From an uncultured virus (IMG/VR IMGVR_UViG_3300035436_000128) (lineage: Duplodnaviria; Heunggongvirae; Uroviricota; Caudoviricetes), in the IMG/VR virus record IMGVR_UViG_3300035436_000128, positions 62,001-85,685 of that record: 23,685 nucleotides of DNA; one strand, written 5' to 3'. Shown piece by piece: positions 8,102 to 17,015 of this stretch. A program made the translations under genes and the position numbers. The notes below the pieces were generated by a model. That model saw only the letters and a list, made by a program, of their open reading frames with translations. It was not told the origin of the DNA and ran no database searches. Within the stretch, counting starts at the first letter, position 1. Every line of letters starts with the position of its first letter.

Positions 8102-9569
8102 TGGGATTGCCTCCTCCGTTGGATGTAGCACTTCCTTTAGAGGTGCCTTCGTTTAGTGATTTTTGTTGGGCACCGTCTTTATCGGTGACCATGTCTTTTG
8201 GTTGTGCCGGCGCCAGCATGCTATCCATGAATCCCGTACCAGAAAGGTTAGGTGCTCCTGGTGCTCTGGGGAAGGTGCCGGTTAAGTGAGCCGCTTCGTC
8301 GTCGGTGATGTACCCCGCCGATAGTTTCCGCATAATGTTCATAAAGTCGACGGACCTGTGGGCAGACAACTCGCTCTCAGGACGGAGGTCTACTGACTTG
8401 AATCGGAACTTGATATAACTGTCGGTACCGGCTACCAAGCGAGTGGCCAGAGTCAACGCCCTGCTCATCACGGTTTCGACGGGTCTGCGAACACCCTCGA
8501 CCATCTTCAGGAATACCAGTGACTCCGTGTTACTCAAGGACTGAGAGCCACCTATACGCATGCCCAATACAGAAGGCATGGTCTTCAGGGCTGACGCTAA
8601 CATGCCTGACAGGGTGTCCAGCATGCTGGAGTAATCTGCTTTGTCGCCGGCCGCCGAAATACTGTCGATCTCTGCACTGTCGTACATTACCACGGCGTCT
8701 TCGGGGTTAAGGTCTTTTAACAGGTCTTCGATCTGTGACCGGGTCGCTTCAAAGAACGCTGACATCTTATCAGCATCCGCTAATGTATCTGGGTCAGCCA
8801 TTTTAGCTACAGCCTCTTGGACAACCCTGACCACCATTCGAGTGTGCCCAGTCCTGCGTATAACCTTGAAGATGTCTTCCAGCAGGCCTTGGTACATGTA
8901 CAGCATGTTTAAAGCCGACTCGAAAGGCGACCTCGGAAAGATGCTGTTGCTTTGTTGGGCATGAGATGCGTAGAAGATCGTGGGCAAGTCCAGCGGAATC
9001 TTATCCCCCCCACCCGCAGGTATCTGCTGTGGGTAACGTCGACCTGTTGCTTTTGATACCCATTCAATCGTGTTGATGGGTATCGACACGATCTCCTCTG
9101 GTAACTGGAATTTGTTCAGGACCAACTCACCCATACAGGCACCAGTCTGGAGGACCTCTTTGATCATGGTTTCCAGGAGTGCGTCCAAGGCCTGCTTGCT
9201 TGAAAACCCCTCGGTGTAATCGTATAGGGTGTCCAGGGAGGCTAACACCGACTGGACCGCAAGCGTTGCAGCGGGGTCAAACTGGTGCGTACCGGCTGTG
9301 TAAGCGGTGACGGTATAGCCAGAAGACATACCCAACTGCAGGTAAGCGTTCAGGGCTGCAGAGAAGGTGCCGTCTGTCCTTGTGAGAATCCTAATGGCCG
9401 TTGTGACTGGCTGGGTTCTCAAATCCGAGATGGACGTGTTAAAGTAAGACCGCTCTGTATCGGTTATCGTAGCGCCTTCTGTTTTACGGTAACCCACATC
9501 CGTCACAGGCACTTTAGTCGCAACGACTCTTCGCGGTAAAGAAATTGGAGGGGCTTCGGCCATAAACAT
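8094..9569 (-). CDS. Portal protein
   Basis: 491 aa, first gene of the head operon, immediately upstream of the protease; size and synteny fit. Confidence 0.8.
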   Translation of the reverse strand: MFMAEAPPISLPRRVVATKVPVTDVGYRKTEGATITDTERSYFNTSISDLRTQPVTTAIRILTRTDGTFSAALNAYLQLGMSSGYTVTAYTAGTHQFDPAATLAVQSVLASLDTLYDYTEGFSSKQALDALLETMIKEVLQTGACMGELVLNKFQLPEEIVSIPINTIEWVSKATGRRYPQQIPAGGGDKIPLDLPTIFYASHAQQSNSIFPRSPFESALNMLYMYQGLLEDIFKVIRRTGHTRMVVRVVQEAVAKMADPDTLADADKMSAFFEATRSQIEDLLKDLNPEDAVVMYDSAEIDSISAAGDKADYSSMLDTLSGMLASALKTMPSVLGMRIGGSQSLSNTESLVFLKMVEGVRRPVETVMSRALTLATRLVAGTDSYIKFRFKSVDLRPESELSAHRSVDFMNIMRKLSAGYITDDEAAHLTGTFPRAPGAPNLSGTGFMDSMLAPAQPKDMVTDKDGAQQKSLNEGTSKGSATSNGGGNPNG

Positions 9570-9625
9570 CGCTCCGGTTGGAATTGTTAATTAACTCAAT
9601 AACTAAAGATTATTACATAACTGAC

Positions 9626-10126: not shown

Positions 10127-10306
10127 ATGATTAAAGTAACCATATGCGTTAACCAACGGTGCCCCCTCCGGCACCGTTGCGGTAAAGTCTTTGAGCCTCA
10201 AGAGGTACAGGGTACTATAGCTTACAAATTCTTCCACCCGACTCGGGATCAGGGCGGACAGGTTAGTTGTGGTGAGTTTAGTCAGAAGGTGTCGCATGGC
10301 CGGTAA
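10127..10306 (+). CDS. Small Cys-rich (Zn-binding?) protein, below the ORF-track cutoff
   Basis: Hand translation MIKVTICVNQRCPLRHRCGKVFEP...VSCGEFSQKVSHGR, 59 aa; fills the gap before terL and overlaps its start. Confidence 0.65.
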   Translation: MIKVTICVNQRCPLRHRCGKVFEPQEVQGTIAYKFFHPTRDQGGQVSCGEFSQKVSHGR

Positions 10307-11975
10307 TCTTATTTCCAATTTCAGGGAGTCCCTACAGGCTCAAGTGGATAGGTCCTCTTTGGTGACCTCCGACTGGATAGTCTCCAACTTCACGCACCCC
10401 AGGGATGACAGAAGGAACTGGTCGTGGAAGGATCATGAGTTCCAAATTGATATAGCCGATTGCGATGACAGGGAAGTGGCCGTTATCAAACCCGCTCAGA
10501 CGGGTTTGTCGACTTTACAGATACGTCTGATTCTGGCCTTCCTGGCTCAACATGACTACCTGAAAGCGGCTTACGTCCTGCCCACGTCTGCCTTCGCCCG
10601 GGAGTTCACACAAAGCCGGTTCAACCCAGCCATTGAGTCCAGCCCTAAGATCGCAGGATTGGTGTCGAGTGACACCGACAACACCTCTATCAAGAAGATA
10701 GGCTCCTGCTTCCTTATACTTCGAGGTACGTCGGGCACCACCTCCGCCATCTCTGTCGACTTAGACCTCCTGATCGTAGATGAGCTTGACTTCTGTTCTC
10801 AAGATGTTCTCTCCTCCTTCAGCTCAAGGTTGCAGCACTCGGACCTGAAACTTAAACGAGACTTCTCGACCCCAACCTTGCCCGGGTTTGGGATTTCGGC
10901 TAAGTATGCGGAGTCCTCGCAGGCTGTGAGGATGGTCAAGCACGATGTCTGTGGGCATTGGGTTAACCTGTCTTTCTTCAGTGACGTGGTGATTCCTGGG
11001 TTCGACCAAGCGACGTCCGATTTTAGGGTCGACCACCTGCCGTTCGTCGATGTCTCTCAGGCTTGGTACAAGTGCCCTCATTGTGGGCATGCTGTTACTG
11101 AGGCCAACCTTGCCGATCCGGACAAGAGGAGCTGGGTGGATAAGCACCCCGGCCACTTCCGGAAAGGCTTCCGGGTAACTCCTTGGGATTTGGTCAAGTA
11201 CAACCCTTTGGCAGAGGTCCTTGGGGATATCCGTAAATATCATTACGGAGATTGGGTTAATTTCAGGACAGGTTTGGAGTTTGAGTCCGCCGACAACTCC
11301 TTCATGGAGTCCGTGATCGACCGTAACACGGTTATCAACCCTGTTGCCTTAGATACCTTATTGGCAGGAGGGTATTATGGCCTGTTTATCGGGGTCGACT
11401 TGGGTAAAGTGGCCCATTTGGTGGTGGGCGCAGCCTCGGAAAAGGGGTTGGATATATTGTGTGCAGTGCAAATAGACGTCTCAAAACTGCCCGATCAGAA
11501 CCTTGGTAAGCTGCTTGTGAAGCTCTCAAGGGCGGTTAGGTGTCCACGGCAGGTGGTAGACAGCATGCCGGACTACTCCGTAGCGCTGCATTTACATGCC
11601 ATGAATTGTGGTTTTGGCGCCGTTTATGGCACGAATTCCTCGAATTTGGACATTTATGTGTGGGATGAGAAGAAGGGTATGGTCAAAATGGACCGAGACC
11701 TCCACTTTGACGACCTCGCCGGGGCTGTCAACTCGGGAAAAATACGGTTTCCAACAGACCAACCCCTAATGAAGCAGCATCTGTCCGTAATGAAGAAGGC
11801 CTCCGTGGAGACAGCCAAGGGTAAGGTCAAGAAATGGGTTTCGACCTCGACCGAGGACCACTTTGGCCATGCGTTAGGGTATTGCTGGGCTGCGTATGCT
11901 TCGATTTCGGAAAGGTATGTGCTGACGCCCTTGATTATGCCACCGAGCGTGGGCAAGGTTAGGCTGAAAACTTGA
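10296..11975 (+). CDS. terL: Terminase large subunit, lambda gpA-like family
   Basis: Walker A-like KPAQTGLST, Walker B LLIVDELD, STPT coupling motif, CPHC, nuclease IGVDLG and DHFGHA. ATG at 10296 with AAGGTG SD. Confidence 0.93.
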   Translation: MAGNLISNFRESLQAQVDRSSLVTSDWIVSNFTHPRDDRRNWSWKDHEFQIDIADCDDREVAVIKPAQTGLSTLQIRLILAFLAQHDYLKAAYVLPTSAFAREFTQSRFNPAIESSPKIAGLVSSDTDNTSIKKIGSCFLILRGTSGTTSAISVDLDLLIVDELDFCSQDVLSSFSSRLQHSDLKLKRDFSTPTLPGFGISAKYAESSQAVRMVKHDVCGHWVNLSFFSDVVIPGFDQATSDFRVDHLPFVDVSQAWYKCPHCGHAVTEANLADPDKRSWVDKHPGHFRKGFRVTPWDLVKYNPLAEVLGDIRKYHYGDWVNFRTGLEFESADNSFMESVIDRNTVINPVALDTLLAGGYYGLFIGVDLGKVAHLVVGAASEKGLDILCAVQIDVSKLPDQNLGKLLVKLSRAVRCPRQVVDSMPDYSVALHLHAMNCGFGAVYGTNSSNLDIYVWDEKKGMVKMDRDLHFDDLAGAVNSGKIRFPTDQPLMKQHLSVMKKASVETAKGKVKKWVSTSTEDHFGHALGYCWAAYASISERYVLTPLIMPPSVGKVRLKT

Positions 11976-12074
11976 GTTTGTTTAAATCCCGTTTTTTCAA
12001 AGTGGGTGGGATATGTCGAGGGGTGCTCCCACCCCCTTCTGGTGTCGAGTCGATACAAAAAAGTACCCTGGGTC

Positions 12075-12091
12075 CGCACCATCTTGGTGCA
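12075..12091. promoter_or_regulatory. NtrC-type binding site 1
   Basis: CGCACCATCTTGGTGCA versus consensus TGCACCA-N3-TGGTGCA. Confidence 0.75.
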
Positions 12092-12115
12092 AAACGGCCT
12101 AAACACCACCAAAAC

Positions 12116-12132
12116 CGCACCATCTTGGTGCA
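12116..12132. promoter_or_regulatory. NtrC-type binding site 2
   Basis: Identical to site 1, 41 bp downstream (about 4 helical turns). Confidence 0.75.
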
Positions 12133-12139
12133 CCACGCC

Positions 12140-12152
12140 TAAGTCGTTGATT
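12140..12152 (-). promoter_or_regulatory. IHF site
   Basis: Minus strand AATCAACGACTTA matches WATCAANNNNTTR exactly. Confidence 0.75.
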
Positions 12153-12238
12153 TACATCACATTATTTTACTTGACATTACTAAAACACCTTTTTTCTGTA
12201 TAAATTTTATACAATTTTAACTTTGTCAAGCACTTTCG

Positions 12239-12255
12239 TGCACCAATCTGGTGCA
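12239..12255. promoter_or_regulatory. NtrC-type binding site 3
   Basis: TGCACCAATCTGGTGCA, perfect 7-bp arms. Confidence 0.8.
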
Positions 12256-12291
12256 CCATAAGCATATAAGCTAACGCTAATAATCCTTTAA

Positions 12292-12304
12292 AATCAATAA
12301 CTTA
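12292..12304 (+). promoter_or_regulatory. IHF site
   Basis: AATCAATAACTTA matches WATCAANNNNTTR exactly, with an AT-rich 5' flank. Confidence 0.8.
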
Positions 12305-12319
12305 CAGAGTTTTTCGAGT

Positions 12320-12335
12320 TGGCATGATTGCTGCA
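12320..12335 (+). promoter_or_regulatory. Sigma54 (RpoN) -24/-12 promoter
   Basis: TGGCATGATTGCTGCA = GG-N10-GC; predicted +1 near 12346, 35 nt before ATG 12381. Confidence 0.8.
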
Positions 12336-12380
12336 TTATTTTAGGCTCACCCTACCTTCTTTTTTTTTGGAGTCATAACC

Positions 12381-13151
12381 ATGAACGCTCAAACTACAGT
12401 TACCCTGTCAATCGTTAGCCTTAAGTCAATCGACCGAGATATAAACACGCTTGTTTCCAGCTTAGGAAAAGCCGAAGACAAAATATTATCCATATGTAAT
12501 TCAATACTTACCGGGGCAAGCCAAGCTACCACGCAAAAAGATGTTAACGCTTTCTATCAGAAAGCTGCCACGCTAGCTGATAAGCTGGCTTTTTTCGGAA
12601 AACAAAAAACAGTAATAGCCTTTTTTAAAGGCAAAATCCCGCACAATATCAGCGCGGGTAAAGATGGGCATTACAAGCTAAGTAAGCTTGACACAAGCTT
12701 AATAAAATCAGCTGAAACCTTGCAAGCCGAAAAGGATAAGGCGGCCGATAATCGCGCGGCAGCTACGATTAAACGGCAAACCGAGCAGGCAGAAAAAGCC
12801 GCCAAACTGGCAAAATTCAGCGAGATGGAAAAACAATTGAATGACGTTCAATTGTCAGATAAGACTGAATTAAAAAAACAGCTAAACAGCATTAAAAAAC
12901 TGGCTGAAAAGGCTGAAATAGAAGCCACGGCAAACAAACAAGCGGCTGAAAAAGCTGGTAAACAAGCTGCCGTGGTTGCGAGTGAACTAGACGCGGCCAA
13001 ACTGGTTATAAAGGAATTAACCGATAAATTACACGACGCAGAAAGGATTACCGCTACCATGTCCGCGCGGATAAAATCAGATGCTGAGCTGATAGCATCA
13101 CTCAAGGCCGAAGTTAAGGCCTTGAACCGTATAGTCAACAAGGCCGCCTAA
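12381..13151 (+). CDS. First early-type gene, Ala/Lys-rich coiled-coil protein
   Basis: 256 aa, GGAG SD, long heptad-like C-terminal half. Confidence 0.85.
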   Translation: MNAQTTVTLSIVSLKSIDRDINTLVSSLGKAEDKILSICNSILTGASQATTQKDVNAFYQKAATLADKLAFFGKQKTVIAFFKGKIPHNISAGKDGHYKLSKLDTSLIKSAETLQAEKDKAADNRAAATIKRQTEQAEKAAKLAKFSEMEKQLNDVQLSDKTELKKQLNSIKKLAEKAEIEATANKQAAEKAGKQAAVVASELDAAKLVIKELTDKLHDAERITATMSARIKSDAELIASLKAEVKALNRIVNKAA

Positions 13152-13160
13152 TCGCTGCCA

Positions 13161-13224
13161 ATAGTCCCGGATTAATCCGGGACTATCTCAAACAGTGTTA
13201 ATTAACACTGTTTGAGATAGTCCC
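13161..13224. repeat. Two overlapping perfect palindromes (26 bp at 13161-13186; 46 bp at 13179-13224)
   Basis: ATAGTCCCGGATT|AATCCGGGACTAT and GGGACTATCTCAAACAGTGTTAA|TTAACACTGTTTGAGATAGTCCC. Confidence 0.95.
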
Positions 13225-13623
13225 TAGCGCAAGGAGTCGCGCGGCAAGTCTATGGACTTGTTTTCCTATGCTGCCCAGCTGGGCAGTAATAAGGCGTTAG
13301 TCATTGCTAAAACCTTGCACGTTCATTTAATGAGTGCTTAACCTAGCAAGCTGATTATTCGAGAGAATTACACGCAAAACCGATGTTATACACTTTTATT
13401 TATTGGTTCCTCTGTTCTACCATTGTAGAAAACGTGACAATAAAAAAGGCGTATAGTCTGGAAATCTGGCCTAATCGTTAACTGATACAGAAAAAGGTTA
13501 ATCGTTAGGCAGTGGGTAACCCCTTAACGTGTTTGCAATGGTAGCAAGAACGGCCAACCCAATGGCCGTGCGTTTTGGTGATTCCCTATAGTCTATAAAT
13601 TATTCACTATAGGGAATCACCAA
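13225..13623 (+). ncRNA. Candidate structured non-coding RNA
   Basis: No ORF in the track; at least 7 helices, some nested and with bulges; ends at a terminator. Confidence 0.45.
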
Positions 13624-13624
13624 C

Positions 13625-13660
13625 AAAAGCCGCAAGATATTCTAATCTTGCGGCTTTTTT
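13625..13660 (+). terminator. Rho-independent terminator
   Basis: AAAAGCCGCAAGAT-ATTCTA-ATCTTGCGGCTTTTTT. Confidence 0.9.
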
Positions 13661-13699
13661 ATGCCCTAAACTTTTAGCCTAATTAGATAAGGAATCTTT

Positions 13700-14098
13700 A
13701 TGAACACCCACCACATAAAAGCAAACCACACTTTAGCCCACAAAGCCAAACCGTTGGTTCAAGCCTTGTTCGAAGAGCATGGCGACGTTTTTATCGCCGT
13801 CCGTGGTTTGGAAACCGAATACGAAAACGGCGAAACAGACGAACGGGTCTACACCGTTTCCCTATGCCCCAACCAAGAACAAGTTTATGCCTATGAATGG
13901 CAGTATGTCTCTGCCAAGGAATGGCTGGAACACTATGAAACCCCACAATTTGGAATTGTAGACGGATACGGCAGGGAATGCTTTTCTACACGTTTTAAAA
14001 CCTTGAAGGAAGCCAAGGACGCTTTACAAGCCTTCGTCCTGGGCAACGACGAGCCACACAAATATTATGAACTTGATGTTCATAACTTCAGCATATAA
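13700..14098 (+). CDS. Hypothetical early protein
   Basis: 132-aa ORF, AAGGA SD. Confidence 0.8.
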   Translation: MNTHHIKANHTLAHKAKPLVQALFEEHGDVFIAVRGLETEYENGETDERVYTVSLCPNQEQVYAYEWQYVSAKEWLEHYETPQFGIVDGYGRECFSTRFKTLKEAKDALQAFVLGNDEPHKYYELDVHNFSI

Positions 14099-14123
14099 CC
14101 AACCAACCTTTTGGAGCAATCAA

Positions 14124-14489
14124 ATGAAAAAATTGGCATTCATAACCCGCCACACACCAACCCCAGCCCAGTACAAGCTTGCATCTGAGCAAGGATTCGA
14201 GCTTGATTTTGTGGGCGACAGGGACGCTTTTAGTTTTAATCCTGAAGAGTTTCAGGATTATGACGGCGTTGTCGTTGTGCATCCCTGGATGGCTCTTCAG
14301 GCCACAAGATGGGTGAACTTCATCGGCGTTTTCGAAAACGCCAACCGGGCGCCTGAAGGTGAAAGGCCTTCATTCGAAGCAGTGGCCTTGCACGTCATGG
14401 AAATGCCTCATTCGATTGAGGCAAACCTATACAAGGAAGTAATGGGCCTGGAAGCCCTGGAGATGGCAGAAAGGGATTTGACCTCATGA
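14124..14489 (+). CDS. Hypothetical protein with a motif pattern reminiscent of Csx15/Csx16/Csx20-type proteins
   Basis: GGAG SD; starts MKKLAFITRHTPTPAQ. The family call is tentative. Confidence 0.75.
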   Translation: MKKLAFITRHTPTPAQYKLASEQGFELDFVGDRDAFSFNPEEFQDYDGVVVVHPWMALQATRWVNFIGVFENANRAPEGERPSFEAVALHVMEMPHSIEANLYKEVMGLEALEMAERDLTS

Positions 14490-14662
14490 TTTCCATCTAT
14501 TCCGAGTCTGGCTTTTCATGCCAGTTTCAAAACCTGGATGCCGCGATTGAAGCGGCAAGGGATTACATATTTGCAAGGATGTGCAAGTGTGACCTTTCTG
14601 CAAGGGTTTGCATCATCGTAAAGGGAGTTTTTCTCAAGGCGTTAACTTGGGAAGACATTTGA
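14486..14662 (+). CDS. Hypothetical protein (58 aa, not in the ORF track)
   Basis: ATGA overlap with the upstream gene; MISIYSESGFSCQF...ALTWEDI. Confidence 0.6.
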   Translation: MISIYSESGFSCQFQNLDAAIEAARDYIFARMCKCDLSARVCIIVKGVFLKALTWEDI

Positions 14663-14689
14663 TAAATCTAATATCGAAGGAAACAAACC

Positions 14690-14941
14690 ATGCGAACGAA
14701 AGAAGAAATGCGAGCTGCAAGGCAGCTCGCAAGGGAAAACTGGAAGTCCCTAGACTTCCAAATAAATGACGAGCTTCTGGAGAAGTTCGATAAATTGCCA
14801 CAACAACATCATTGGTCGGCAAATATAGTCAAGGATGGAACCTTGACTATAACAACCTTCAGGCATGGGTTGTACGACTTGGCCGAAGCTAAAGAAGAGA
14901 TGGATAATTTTGTTAAGTTATTAGGCGACCCAATAAACTAA
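14690..14941 (+). CDS. Hypothetical protein
   Basis: 83 aa, AAGGA SD. Confidence 0.75.
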   Translation: MRTKEEMRAARQLARENWKSLDFQINDELLEKFDKLPQQHHWSANIVKDGTLTITTFRHGLYDLAEAKEEMDNFVKLLGDPIN

Positions 14942-15172
14942 ATGAACCTTCATCACGCCATTTTGGCCGAAGCCGCAAGGCTCGGCCAAACATTCGAAGG
15001 AATCGCAGGAATGAAGCGATTCCACGTTGTAATTCCAGGGTCGGGCGAAGGATTTGCCCAAACCTTGGCAGAAGCCGAAGCTTCGAAGGCCGCCGCCGAA
15101 GATATTATTCGGCGCCACAACCTCGATTTCGAAGCAACCGTCATTTCAACATTTCAACAATACTTGAAATGA
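14942..15172 (+). CDS. Hypothetical protein
   Basis: 76 aa, abuts the previous stop. Confidence 0.6.
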   Translation: MNLHHAILAEAARLGQTFEGIAGMKRFHVVIPGSGEGFAQTLAEAEASKAAAEDIIRRHNLDFEATVISTFQQYLK

Positions 15173-15425
15173 CATTAAAAATATCCATTTACGAAGCCGC
15201 CGAAGGCCGAAAATCGGCGGCGGAGTCATTTTCAGGCGGCGGAGGATCAACGTTAAACTTTTCCAAAAATCGGCAGGGATATATTACAGGAAAAGTGCAA
15301 AAAGTAAGGGAAATTAAAGGTACGAACAAGGCTCTTTAAAGAAAAATAAATTACTGAAATCATTTATCTTTTTTTTTAGCCTTTTTTTAGGGTACCTATA
15401 TTAGCATTCCTGAATATTTCCGTTG

Positions 15426-15482
15426 ATGTAATATATCCCTACCCCTATCACTTTTTTCGGTAGGGGTAGGGATATATTACAT
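15426..15482. repeat. Perfect 22-bp inverted repeat with a 13-nt spacer
   Basis: ATGTAATATATCCCTACCCCTA-N13-TAGGGGTAGGGATATATTACAT. Confidence 0.95.
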
Positions 15483-16287
15483 AAAATCGAAAAGTAGTTT
15501 TCAAAAAGTGCCTTTTTCAGAACCCTATTTTTCGAAGCTCCCACCTTGACCTGCCTAGGTTTTTTATTCTTCTACCTGCCAAAAATGGCCGATTTTCACC
15601 GATTTTTGGCCTCCAAGTTTATAGAAGTAAGTTCCCCGATTATTGAAGGATTTCAACCACATAGTTTTCTTTTAAACTTTTTGGCCGAAATCCTCAAAAT
15701 CGGGGTTATCGAAAATAAAAAGCCACTGAGTAATGACGTTATTTCACAGCCTTTATCTTTTTAGAAGTATAAAAGACGAAAATCCTAACGTATTTCGCTC
15801 AGTGGACCCCTATTTTCGTACTTCTATAAATAAAAAACCTGAAAAAAAACGCTAGGGAAAAATTCGCATGAATTTGGACAAAAGCACATCTGCAGTCCCG
15901 ACCCTTGCCCCGCAAAACAGCACCAAAAACACCCCTCAAGCCTTGTTGTTCTATGGGTTTCGAAGGCTTTTACTAACACAAAAGCCACTGAGTCTAGCCG
16001 CACGACTTCTGTAAAATACGATAGGACTATATTACAGTGCTCAAAATCGGCTGTTTTTCAGCCGAAAACAGCCAAAAACAGCAGGCCACTGAGTTTGTAA
16101 AAATATGTTAGGTCGTGTTTGCGAAATTTTCCCTGCCACTTTTAACGAAAGTTCTACCTCTTAACTCAGTGGCCTGCGCTCCCACTTAGAGCCTGAAGGC
16201 TTTAGGGTACCCGAATCGGGTACCCTTAGAGGCTCTAGGATTTTGCTGTTTGATGGGTCCACAGACTCTAACGTATTTTGGTAGAAC

Positions 16288-16319
16288 TAACTGTGAGATT
16301 CACAGTTATAATGTACATC
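16288..16319 (+). promoter_or_regulatory. Putative promoter: TATAAT overlapped by the palindrome TAACTGTGA-GAT-TCACAGTTA
   Basis: TATAAT at 16307-16312; GTTATAATnTACATC recurs at 22994-23008; no consensus -35. Confidence 0.55.
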
Positions 16320-16343
16320 ACCAACACTATAGGAGTCGATATA

Positions 16344-17015
16344 ATGACCAATCTAGGAACCATAAACGAAGCCCAAGCTAGGGATTTCATAAAGCACCGA
16401 CCTGAAACCTTCCAGGTAGAAGGAGGCATCCCACTTGAGATAGACCTCCTAAAAATATGCAAACACTTGCATATACCTTATGGGAGGGCCTATCGGCCCC
16501 AGCCTGTCCAGATGATTCGAAGGGATTTCTTCGAGTATTACACCATCCTGCGGGACATTCAGAAAACCCCGTGGGAGATATTCGAACTCGACGGAGGTTG
16601 GACTGGCGTCAGCCCTGCAGGGGACGTTATCGTGAGGGAAGCATTAGACCAAGGGATATGGTCGGATTTGTGGAAGCGGTGGCCTGTGAAGGAGTTTTAC
16701 AAGCCCAGCTCCAAAATCGTACCACTCTATCGGTGGCCGGCCTTCTGCACCAAGGACCAGATAGAGGAGTTCTATCCGGACGTTGACTTTAAAGACGTCC
16801 AGAAGGCCCATCGAAAGATTGGAACCTTCAAGGCAGCCTGGACGGGGACGTCTACGTCTCACGCTCGGCCTAGCGTGTACCAGAAGGTTATCGTCCACCT
16901 TCTGCATCTTGGCGTCCACATGGAAAGACCTACCGTGATGGACGTCCATAACCTAGCCCTGAAGCATGGGGTGTACAAGGTATACCCCTACGCTGTAGGA
17001 CCTAAATTTAGATAA
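16344..17015 (+). CDS. Hypothetical protein
   Basis: 223 aa from the ATG after an AGGAG SD. Confidence 0.8.
   Translation: MTNLGTINEAQARDFIKHRPETFQVEGGIPLEIDLLKICKHLHIPYGRAYRPQPVQMIRRDFFEYYTILRDIQKTPWEIFELDGGWTGVSPAGDVIVREALDQGIWSDLWKRWPVKEFYKPSSKIVPLYRWPAFCTKDQIEEFYPDVDFKDVQKAHRKIGTFKAAWTGTSTSHARPSVYQKVIVHLLHLGVHMERPTVMDVHNLALKHGVYKVYPYAVGPKFR

What the first reader, a model, noticed from the sequence alone, without database searches (positions are those of the whole stretch)
12075..12380. Complete NtrC-enhancer / IHF / sigma54 promoter in front of the phage's first early-type gene: possible nitrogen-status gate
Seen: three 17-bp palindromes (12075, 12116, 12239) matching TGCACCA-N3-TGGTGCA, two exact IHF cores (12140 on -, 12292 on +) and GG-N10-GC at 12320-12335. 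With +1 near 12346, the proximal IHF site is centred near -48 and the proximal palindrome near -99; the second IHF site lies between the distal pair and the proximal site. Established: this is the layout of enhancer-dependent sigma54 promoters, and NtrC~P reports nitrogen limitation. Inference: the phage couples its first transcript to host nitrogen status (or to a related enhancer-binding protein) rather than to a constitutive sigma70 promoter. I do not know a described phage example.
Basis: partly seen in the sequence, partly recalled or inferred. Interest (0 to 1): 0.9.

Follow-up and report, generated by a model that had tools for sequence, protein, structure and literature searches.

The report
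NtrC/IHF/sigma-54 promoter cassette in phage
An 85.7-kb uncultured phage carries, ahead of one gene of unknown function, a control region built like the bacterial nitrogen-starvation promoters glnAp2 and glnHp2, so this gene is probably switched on by the host's nitrogen-limitation regulator.

Summary
The window holds three exact GCACCA-N3-TGGTGC dyads, the only three in the 85,685-bp phage genome. E. coli K-12 has three in 4.64 Mb, two of them at glnAp2 and glnHp2. Both IHF cores of the window lie in this gap. The TGGCAT-N5-CTGCA box sits 45 nt before the ATG.

A relative contig (TerL 83% identical) keeps the module:
- 30 of 30 NtrC core positions are identical.
- 11 of 12 sigma-54 positions are identical.
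- Only 144 of 247 other aligned positions are identical.

Spacings between the elements change in 11-bp steps (30/41/52 and 74/63). The phage encodes no activator, no Fis-type HTH and no sigma-54, and I found no sigma-70-like promoter.

My best reading (about 0.65) is a host NtrC~P-, IHF- and sigma-54-dependent promoter. It probably drives a single exchangeable gene closed off by strong hairpins, not the whole early programme.

The host is unknown and there is no RNA evidence. One low-depth contig lacks site 3.

Prior art exists: a sigma-54-like promoter in Pseudomonas phage YuA and NtcA promoters in cyanophages. This scan also noted similar islands in other phage DNA. My six literature searches found no NtrC-enhancer phage promoter in print.

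The parts
12075..12091 (.). NtrC-type dyad 1 (CGCACCA-TCT-TGGTGCA), centre about -263
   Evidence: The core GCACC/GGTGC is identical in the relative L004 (TGCACCAAAACGGTGCA).
12116..12132 (.). NtrC-type dyad 2, same 17-mer as dyad 1, centre about -222, 41 bp from dyad 1
   Evidence: The dyad 1 to dyad 2 spacing is 52 bp in L004 and 30 bp in a contig of run X5, which has an 11-bp deletion at 12098.
12140..12152 (-). Distal IHF-like core (AATCAACGACTTA); weak part of the model
   Evidence: It is not conserved at the equivalent place in L004.
12197..12213 (.). Perfect AT-rich palindrome TGTATAAA-T-TTTATACA, unexplained
   Evidence: It lies in the 21-nt block TTCTGTATAAATTTTATACAA, identical in window and L004. 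In the viral-contig scan, 10 of the 11 loci found lacked any dyad and only the relative's own contig had them.
12222..12231 (.). Conserved block TTTGTCAAGC next to dyad 3, unexplained. It overlaps a 4-mismatch pseudo-dyad at 12226-12242, offset 13 bp from dyad 3.
   Evidence: The two glnHp2 sites in E. coli are also offset by 13 bp. This is a resemblance only.
12239..12255 (.). NtrC-type dyad 3 (TGCACCA-ATC-TGGTGCA), perfect consensus, centre about -99
   Evidence: Its 15-mer is identical to the exact site upstream of E. coli glnH. It is conserved in L004.
12292..12304 (+). Proximal IHF-like core (AATCAATAACTTA), centre about -48
   Evidence: L004 has an exact core at about -51 on the opposite strand.
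12320..12335 (+). Sigma-54-type -24/-12 element TGGCATGATTGCTGCA; predicted start near 12346
   Evidence: L004 has TGGCATGGTTACTGCT, with 11 of 12 specified positions identical. The same TGGCAT-N5-CTGCW variant lies just upstream of E. coli argT, zraS and ddpX.
12369..12372 (+). Ribosome-binding site GGAG after a T9 run
   Evidence: T-run plus GGAGT is conserved in L004.
12381..13151 (+). Cargo gene (256 aa, P0001): N-terminal domain plus a K/A/E-rich tail, function unknown
   Evidence: No family was found. There is only a weak DUF3102 lead. In the relative an unrelated 216-aa gene takes its place.
13153..13229 (+). Very stable hairpin cluster after the cargo gene; probable end of the unit
   Evidence: -41.1 kcal/mol, z -9.6. 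It has no T-run here. The relative has three tandem hairpins at the same place, the first a canonical terminator.
13625..13664 (+). Canonical intrinsic terminator (14-bp stem plus T6) just before the next gene at 13700
   Evidence: -21.1 kcal/mol, z -7.4.

Best explanation
This is an enhancer-dependent sigma-54 promoter that the phage borrows from its host's nitrogen-stress system.

Proposed mechanism:
- Phosphorylated host NtrC binds the three 17-bp dyads, one at about -99 and a same-face pair at about -222 and -263.
- Host IHF bends the DNA at about -48.
- The NtrC oligomer contacts sigma-54 RNA polymerase closed at TGGCAT-N5-CTGCA and opens it. Transcription starts near 12346.
- The transcript covers one exchangeable gene of unknown function (12381-13151) and probably ends at the hairpins behind it.
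- The gene would therefore be expressed mainly in nitrogen-limited host cells.

Shown here: the sequence elements, their rarity, their conservation and phasing, and the lack of phage-encoded factors.

Inferred: binding by NtrC and IHF, sigma-54 dependence, the start site, the terminator function, and that the unknown host has these proteins.
For: 1. Rarity. There are 3 exact GCACCANNNTGGTGC in 85.7 kb, all within 180 bp. E. coli K-12 has only 3 in 4.64 Mb. Two lie upstream of glnA and glnH, and the third lies between potF and potG. Dyad 3 is the same 15-mer as the glnH site.

2. Consensus. TGCACCAnnnTGGTGCA is the published NtrC consensus (passages in PMC8743547; Table 1 of PMC4987338).

3. 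Footprint against relative L004 (TerL 83% identical). NtrC cores are identical at 30 of 30 positions, and the central N5 at 7 of 15. Sigma-54 specified positions are identical at 11 of 12, and the spacer at 2 of 4. The rest of 12060-12380 is identical at 144 of 247 aligned positions, with 13 more in gaps.

4. Phasing. The dyad 1 to dyad 2 spacing is 41 bp in the window, 52 in L004 and 30 in a contig of run X5. Dyad 3 to GG is about 74 bp in the window and about 63 in L004. All changes are 11 bp, one helical turn.

5. IHF. An exact core lies between dyad 3 and the promoter in both phages, at about -48 and about -51.

6. Box variant. TGGCAT-N5-CTGCW lies 32-84 nt upstream of E. coli argT, zraS and ddpX, in the right orientation (3 of 13 genome matches). 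These genes are listed as sigma-54 targets.

7. Position. It is the only high-scoring -24/-12 site of the genome outside an ORF, 45 nt before an ATG with an RBS.

8. No alternative promoter. No sigma-70-like promoter faces the gene in either phage.

9. No phage factors. Six-frame searches found no HTH_8 and no Sigma54_DBD. Sigma54_activat gave only a sub-threshold Walker-A-type hit of 11.6 bits in the 944-aa ORF.

10. The binder is not the cargo. The cargo gene differs between the two phages while the dyads stay.

11. Predictive value of the dyad. Of 80 viral-contig loci with an exact 17-mer dyad, 13 have a near-perfect sigma-54 box within 400 bp, against 0 of 80 in reversed controls.
Against: - The -24/-12 match alone is no better than chance. 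It also departs from consensus at -21 and -15.
- The host is unknown, so the presence of NtrC, IHF and sigma-54 is assumed from distant relatives that infect Pseudomonas and Vibrio.
- There is no RNA evidence.
- Conservation rests on one relative contig plus short public-run contigs whose full sequence I could not see. Only 1 of the 12 substitutions in the X5 contig was listed.
- One low-depth contig of run X2 (depth 4.3) joins 12180 to 12321. It therefore lacks the AT palindrome, dyad 3 and the proximal IHF core, and it has a rearranged dyad 1.
- The distal IHF core is not conserved.
- The geometry differs from glnAp2. There is a single proximal dyad, and the pair lies far upstream.
- Distant named relatives (PMBT3, SHOU24) have no dyad cluster.
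- Several other viral contigs carry arrays of the same dyad with no sigma-54 box scoring 18 or more within the 400 bp fetched on each side (L052, L077, L086, L110; L060 has only 18.5). In phages the dyad may therefore also serve another purpose.
- Two conserved blocks (12197-12213 and 12222-12231) are unexplained.
Confidence: 0.65

Rival explanations
1. The dyads are operators, iterons or recognition sites for a protein other than NtrC, for example an unrecognised phage DNA-binding protein, a replication initiator or a packaging protein. On this view the -24/-12 match is a coincidence.
For: Arrays of the same 17-mer dyad occur in other viral contigs with no sigma-54 box scoring 18 or more within 400 bp (L052, L077, L086, L110). 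The -24/-12 motif alone is not significant. The module lies next to the terminase gene. Most phage ORFs have no family.
Against: The dyads equal the NtrC consensus at exactly the positions that NtrC reads, and they vary in the spacer. Exact copies are as rare in E. coli as in the phage, and two of the three there mark Ntr promoters. The -24/-12 block is itself conserved (11 of 12) in a poorly conserved region. The module stays with the downstream gene when a 1.7-kb homing-endonuclease insertion separates it from terL in the relative. No Fis-type HTH is encoded. The 11-bp indels fit looping.
Confidence: 0.13
2. NtrC does bind, but the main role is not activation of the cargo gene. The three high-affinity sites, multiplied by phage replication, would titrate NtrC~P and blunt the host Ntr response. 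Alternatively, they repress a promoter that I did not recognise.
For: The sites are consensus-strength. Large dyad arrays in other viral contigs look more like sinks than enhancers, for example 7 sites in L112. NtrC sites at glnA overlap an upstream promoter region (recalled knowledge; the layout is seen). The conserved AT palindrome and TTTGTCAAGC between the dyads are unexplained.
Against: A conserved -24/-12 box, an IHF core and helical phasing relative to the promoter are not needed for a decoy. No sigma-70-like promoter overlaps the dyads on the gene's strand.
Confidence: 0.1
3. The promoter is sigma-54-dependent but is driven by another host enhancer-binding protein with an NtrC-like recognition helix. 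It would then report a signal other than nitrogen status.
For: The host is unknown. Many proteobacteria have several NtrC-family activators (general knowledge).
Against: The dyads match the NtrC consensus exactly. One is identical to the glnHp2 site. Other activators listed in PMC4987338 Table 1 have different sites.
Confidence: 0.07
4. The elements are a chance assembly of motifs with no function.
For: IHF cores and -24/-12 matches occur at chance frequency in the window.
Against: Three exact 12-base dyads within 180 bp cannot be chance. At equal base frequencies about 0.005 exact matches are expected in 85.7 kb (my arithmetic), and the genome holds none elsewhere. All elements are conserved in a diverged relative.
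Confidence: 0.01

Closest known systems
E. coli glnHp2 (NtrC- and IHF-dependent sigma-54 promoter of glnHPQ)
   Same: NtrC dyad(s) upstream, an IHF core between enhancer and promoter, and a -24/-12 box, seen directly. The exact 15-mer GCACCAATCTGGTGC is shared with phage dyad 3.
   Different: In glnHp2 two overlapping dyads sit about 96-109 bp upstream of the GG, and the IHF core ends 6 nt before TGGCAC. The phage has one proximal dyad (about 74 bp from GG), a distal pair, and an IHF core that ends 15 nt before TGGCAT. It is also a phage gene rather than a host transport operon.
E. coli glnAp2 (NtrC enhancer at -140 and -108)
   Same: Two strong dyads on the same face of the helix (32 bp apart; 30, 41 or 52 bp in the phage lineage). 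Activation from a distance at a sigma-54 promoter.
   Different: glnAp2 needs no IHF site (recalled). Its strong pair is proximal, while the phage's pair lies at about -222 and -263.
Sigma-54-like promoter of Pseudomonas phage YuA
   Same: A virulent phage with a promoter assigned to host sigma-54 (passage in PMC10914365 citing Ceyssens et al. 2008b).
   Different: The passage I read names no enhancer, NtrC sites or IHF site. I did not see the original 2008 paper. YuA is not a detectable relative of this phage in my searches.
NtcA-dependent promoters of marine cyanophages
   Same: Phage genes placed under the host's global nitrogen-stress regulator (passages in PMC3037559).
   Different: The NtcA site there is GTA-N8-TAC. 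That it is a CRP-family activator of sigma-70-type promoters, without enhancer, looping or sigma-54, is recalled. Those sites are numerous per genome (1-16), whereas here there is one module.
Earlier notes of this scan on sigma-54-type modules in other phage DNA
   Same: A sigma-54 + IHF + NtrC island in a T4-like phage (e1-5788576), and sigma-54 cassettes in other large phages (e1-5496779, e1-5831853, e1-6112602), listed.
   Different: They are on other genomes and were not checked by me. There is no sequence overlap with this module.

Membership tests
Sigma-54 (RpoN) -24/-12 promoter | GG and GC doublets separated by exactly 10 nt, within TGGCACG-N4-TTGCW | tested here: met
   TGGCATGATTGCTGCA at 12320-12335 matches 10 of 12 specified positions. 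The consensus wording is recalled.
Sigma-54 (RpoN) -24/-12 promoter | The match is statistically distinctive on its own | tested here: not met
   15 matches at up to 2 mismatches against 14.07 expected in shuffles. It ranks third in the genome by my ad hoc score.
Sigma-54 (RpoN) -24/-12 promoter | Placed upstream of, and co-oriented with, a gene, with no sigma-70 alternative | tested here: met
   It lies 45 nt before ATG 12381, which has an RBS. No sigma-70-like site faces the gene. The other top-scoring sites lie inside ORFs.
Sigma-54 (RpoN) -24/-12 promoter | Conserved in relatives | tested here: met
   11 of 12 specified positions are identical in L004, against 58% in the surrounding region. 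This rests on one full relative only.
Sigma-54 (RpoN) -24/-12 promoter | rpoN-dependent transcription start about 12 nt after the GC | not testable with these tools
   No RNA holder is certain, and only contigs were available.
NtrC (GlnG) enhancer | 17-bp dyad TGCACCAnnnTGGTGCA | tested here: met
   13 of 14, 13 of 14 and 14 of 14 specified positions match. The consensus is from PMC8743547. Positive control in E. coli K-12.
NtrC (GlnG) enhancer | At least two sites on the same face of the helix, upstream of a sigma-54 promoter | tested here: met
   Dyads 1 and 2 are 41 bp apart, and 52 and 30 bp apart in variants. All three dyads lie upstream of the box. The pair is farther upstream than in glnAp2.
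NtrC (GlnG) enhancer | Bound by NtrC~P, with activity dependent on ntrC and nitrogen limitation | not testable with these tools
   This needs EMSA or footprinting and reporter assays.
NtrC (GlnG) enhancer | The host encodes NtrC, sigma-54 and IHF | not testable with these tools
   The host is unknown. Distant named relatives infect Pseudomonas and Vibrio. The phage itself encodes none of them, but it does encode an HU/IHF-family protein.
IHF-assisted looping | An IHF core WATCAANNNNTTR between enhancer and promoter | tested here: met
   Exact cores lie at about -48 in the window and about -51 in L004, on the opposite strand.
   Present at 12140 in the window. No core at up to 1 mismatch lies at the equivalent place in L004.

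The most novel reading that the evidence does not exclude
The module is the entry point of the whole 53-kb rightward gene block, reached by read-through or antitermination past the hairpins. Productive infection by this lytic-type phage would then be conditional on, or strongly boosted by, host nitrogen limitation sensed through NtrC~P. The many NtrC-dyad arrays in other uncultured phage contigs would then be the same strategy, a widespread and undescribed class of phage enhancers that read the host Ntr state.
Probability: 0.12. Interest if true: 0.85.

Novelty: new variant of a known kind. Interest (0 to 1): 0.62.

Why it matters
Phages are known to wire genes to host nutrient regulators (cyanophage NtcA), and one phage (YuA) has a reported sigma-54-like promoter. 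An NtrC enhancer with an IHF bend and a sigma-54 core in a phage of a (probably) proteobacterial host turned up in none of my six literature searches.

If it works as read, a virus uses the host's ATP-dependent, tightly off-by-default enhancer machinery as a nitrogen-starvation sensor for an exchangeable cargo gene. That would be a compact natural example of infection programmes that depend on host physiology.

The module matches E. coli consensus elements, so it can be tested directly in E. coli without knowing the host. The survey suggests that NtrC dyads next to sigma-54 boxes are frequent in viral contigs. I did not separate host-flank cases from phage DNA.

Tried and rejected
**Relatives**
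- blastn of the module and megablast of the whole window against 50,697 phage records: no match.
- The cargo protein in viral contigs: 8 pattern hits, none a relative.
- The AT palindrome as a DNA pattern: 11 loci. Only the relative's own contig held dyads, and I take the other 10 to be chance matches.
- My pattern had a fixed 2-nt gap that could not match L004, and it found 0. The corrected variable-gap pattern in metagenome contigs also found 0.
- TerL alignment in metagenome contigs: 102 pattern hits, none a relative.
- The second-gene alignment in viral contigs returned only the same relative.
- TerL in GTDB genome contigs: 2 weak and irrelevant hits, so no host clue.
- Distant named relatives PMBT3 and SHOU24: no dyad cluster.

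**Expression**
- No RNA holder is listed with certainty. Run X5 is labelled RNA-Seq but is probably DNA, and it is kept as contigs.

**Other features in the region**
- No tRNA. No credible Rfam family in 11500-17000; the only hits were sub-threshold eukaryotic miRNA models.
- The module has no similarity to E. coli genomes.
- The hairpin after terL (12000-12038) is not significant (z -1.1).

**Cargo function**
- Nothing from PHROGs, Pfam or PDB sequence search.
- The Atlas gives only weak DUF3102 leads, below 0.85 for the family rows.

**Readings considered and dropped**
- A sigma-70 reading of the conserved TTGGCA... block: poor -10 elements in both phages (my inspection).
- The dyads as terminators: on the + strand there is no T-run after them.
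- The cargo protein as the dyad binder: the cargo differs between phages while the dyads stay.
Full report
**What the DNA is**

The window is bases 62001-85685 of an 85,685-bp IMG/VR virus record. It has a 141-bp terminal overlap, which means a circular assembly, and 50% G+C.

The genome has three gene blocks:
- A leftward structural block running from the portal gene, through the protease and major head protein, to the tail genes.
- Two rightward genes that end with the large terminase (window 10269-11975).
- About 53 kb of rightward genes beginning at window 12381 and running across the record's ends. They include an SNF2 helicase, an HU/IHF-family protein, DHFR, ThyA, a family-A DNA polymerase, a ligase, dUTPase and an SbcCD-like pair.

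The finding lies in the 405-bp gap between terL and the first gene of this long block, which has 40% G+C. The nearest named phages infect Pseudomonas (PMBT3, Lana, UAntarctica) and Vibrio (SHOU24 and others). They share only 31-38% protein identity. The host is therefore unknown but probably a gammaproteobacterium.

**Check of the observation**

- GCACCANNNTGGTGC occurs exactly three times in the window (12076, 12117, 12240). It occurs nowhere else in the 85.7-kb genome.
- The IHF core WATCAANNNNTTR occurs only twice in the window, and both copies are in this gap. The count itself is not unusual.
- TGGCATGATTGCTGCA (12320-12335) has the GG-N10-GC spacing and 10 of 12 consensus positions. As a lone motif it is not better than chance: 15 matches against 14.07 expected, and third in the genome by my ad hoc score.
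- It is, however, the only one of the top three outside an ORF. It sits 45 nt before an ATG that has a GGAG ribosome-binding site.

**Is the dyad really an NtrC box?**

The published consensus is TGCACCAnnnTGGTGCA (passages of PMC8743547; Table 1 of PMC4987338).

As a positive control I ran the same pattern over E. coli K-12. The 4.64-Mb chromosome holds only three exact copies:
- One lies upstream of glnA, at the strong glnAp2 site, with a one-mismatch partner 32 bp away.
- One lies upstream of glnH, at glnHp2, with a one-mismatch partner 13 bp away.
- One lies between potF and potG.

The glnH copy is the same 15-mer as phage dyad 3. A phage 54 times smaller than the E. coli chromosome thus carries as many perfect boxes, all within 180 bp.

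The phage's -24/-12 variant (TGGCAT-N5-CTGCW) has 13 matches in K-12. Three of them lie 32-84 nt upstream of argT, zraS and ddpX, in the right orientation. These genes are listed as sigma-54 targets in the two papers above.

**Conservation**

One relative contig (G001, 19 kb, TerL 83% identical) is collinear with the window. It holds the same module in front of its first rightward gene.

In the alignment:

| Positions | Identical |
|---|---|
| GCACC/GGTGC cores | 30 of 30 |
| Central five bases of the dyads | 7 of 15 |
| Specified sigma-54 positions | 11 of 12 |
| Sigma-54 spacer | 2 of 4 |
| Rest of 12060-12380 | 144 of 247 aligned, plus 13 columns in gaps |

An exact IHF core lies between dyad 3 and the promoter in both phages, at about -48 and about -51, on opposite strands. 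The distal core at 12140 has no counterpart.

The spacings differ by whole helical turns:
- Dyad 1 to dyad 2 is 41 bp in the window and 52 bp in G001.
- It is 30 bp in a 334-nt contig of public run X5, which has an 11-bp deletion at 12098.
- Dyad 3 to the GG is about 74 bp in the window and about 63 bp in G001.

A contig of run X6 covers 12173-12384 with six substitutions. Its only indels are single bases downstream of the -12 element.

In G001 a 1.7-kb insertion carrying an HNH/NUMOD4 homing endonuclease, with its own leftward sigma-70-like promoter, separates terL from the module. In X5 a 434-nt replacement sits at the same place. The module therefore travels with the downstream gene, not with the terminase.

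**What the promoter drives**

The first gene differs between the two phages. It is 256 aa in the window and 216 aa in G001, with no BLASTP similarity. Both have an N-terminal domain and a lysine/alanine-rich tail. Neither has a family. There are only weak DUF3102 leads.

Behind the gene lie very stable hairpins:
- In the window, -41.1 kcal/mol with z -9.6.
- In G001, three tandem hairpins at -59.4 kcal/mol with z -11.7, the first a canonical terminator.
- In the window, a further canonical terminator at 13625-13664, just before the next gene.

The next genes are again homologous between the phages. I therefore read the unit as a self-contained cassette of enhancer, IHF site, sigma-54 promoter, one exchangeable gene and terminator.

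I found no recognisable promoter for the genes after 13700. Read-through from this promoter therefore cannot be excluded.

**Who supplies the proteins**

Pfam scans of 66 ORF translations of the left part of the genome and 31 of the window, plus six-frame family searches of the whole genome, gave these results:
- No Fis-type HTH (PF02954).
- No sigma-54 DNA-binding domain (PF04552).
- For the activator AAA+ domain (PF00158), only an 11.6-bit Walker-A-type hit inside the 944-aa ORF.

The factors must come from the host. The phage does encode an HU/IHF-family protein (genome 23690-24046), which might assist bending later in infection. That is an inference.

**Results against the reading**

- The -24/-12 box is unremarkable by itself.
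- The host is unknown.
- No RNA data exist. Run X5 is labelled RNA-Seq but is probably DNA, and it is held as contigs.
- Only one full relative exists, despite six further searches for relatives.
- One contig of run X2 (depth 4.3) joins 12180 to 12321, which removes 140 bp holding the AT palindrome, dyad 3 and the proximal IHF core. It also shows a rearranged dyad 1. I cannot tell a real variant from an assembly error.
- PMBT3 and SHOU24 have no dyad cluster.
- The 17-bp palindrome at 12197-12213 (inside a 21-nt conserved block) and the block TTTGTCAAGC are conserved and unexplained.
  - Eleven of the 80 listed loci have two or more exact copies. Twenty-seven of 80 have two or more by the looser core pattern.
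  - Thirteen of 80 have a near-perfect sigma-54 box within 400 bp, against 0 of 80 in reversed controls. This supports the dyad as a marker of sigma-54 promoters.
  - Several arrays (L052, L077, L086, L110) show no box scoring 18 or more in the fetched 400 bp (L060 only 18.5), so the dyad may have other uses in phages.
  - I did not separate host flanks from phage DNA in this survey.

**Comparison with what is known**

- The layout works like glnHp2 (NtrC, IHF, sigma-54) and glnAp2 (same-face pair).
[quoted passage not shown] It cites Ceyssens et al. 2008b, which I did not see.
- Pectobacterium phage Q19 has a putative sigma-54-like factor, called from HHpred at E-value 0.67 (PMC7693777).
- Cyanophages carry multiple NtcA promoters (PMC3037559).
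- My six full-text searches listed no paper describing an NtrC enhancer in a phage. Supplements were not consulted.
- This scan has already noted sigma-54/NtrC-type islands on other phage DNA (notably e1-5788576). Those notes are unchecked. They share no sequence with this module.

**Verdict**

The best explanation (about 0.65) is a host NtrC~P-, IHF- and sigma-54-dependent promoter for one exchangeable phage gene. This is a new variant of a known kind: phage genes wired to host nutrient regulators, and sigma-54 promoters in phages.

Noticed in passing
window 15722-16173: Four exact copies of GCCACTGAGT (three on +, one on -) cluster in and next to the 513-bp gap at 15765-16277. There are no other exact copies in the 85.7-kb genome. 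They could be iterons of an origin or a phage-specific regulatory motif.
   Followed up: partly
window 12197-12213 and 12222-12231: A perfect 17-bp AT-rich palindrome (TGTATAAA-T-TTTATACA) and the block TTTGTCAAGC lie between NtrC dyads 2 and 3. Both are identical in the relative, and no factor is assigned. On the - strand they give TTGACA with a TAAAAT only 14 nt away, which is too close for a normal sigma-70 promoter.
   Followed up: partly
window 13152-13699; L033 14997-15717: A long non-coding stretch follows the cargo gene in both phages. It is full of hairpins, and in the relative they share a TGTGAAAT(T)TCACA-type core. In the window a canonical terminator closes it at 13625-13664. There may be a small RNA between them. 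No Rfam or tRNA hit was found.
   Followed up: partly
L004 5676-6362 (- strand) = L033 13253-13939: An HNH_3/NUMOD4 homing-endonuclease gene with its own TTGACG-16-TG-GATAAT promoter is inserted between terL and the module in the relative. Run X5 has a 434-nt replacement at the same spot (window 11975-12008). This looks like an insertion hot spot.
   Followed up: partly
genome 26788-28452 (L010 7788-9452): The thymidylate synthase ORF is 554 aa and has an I-HmuI/NUMOD-like endonuclease domain in the middle. This suggests an intron- or intein-type insertion in thyA.
   Followed up: no
genome 23690-24046 (L010 4690-5046): The phage encodes an HU/IHF-family DNA-bending protein (PF00216, E 1.8e-30). 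It could act at the IHF-like sites of its own promoter region.
   Followed up: no
L112, L062, L048, L060, L089, L077, L052 (IMG/VR loci): Other viral contigs hold dense arrays of exact TGCACCANNNTGGTGCA dyads, up to 7 in 300 bp. In L112 and L062 they sit beside perfect or divergent sigma-54 boxes (TGGCACGGATCTTGCA). They also carry shared GTGAGCGCTCAC palindromes. These contigs look like a separate phage group with an elaborate NtrC-box region.
   Followed up: partly
E. coli K-12 NC_000913.3 894945-894959: One of only three exact NtrC-consensus 15-mers of the chromosome lies in the 94-bp potF-potG gap, inside the operon rather than in front of it.
   Followed up: no
window 9569-9578: The leftward portal gene and the first rightward gene (probably the small terminase) start only 8 bp apart. 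Their divergent promoters must therefore lie inside coding sequence or far away.
   Followed up: no
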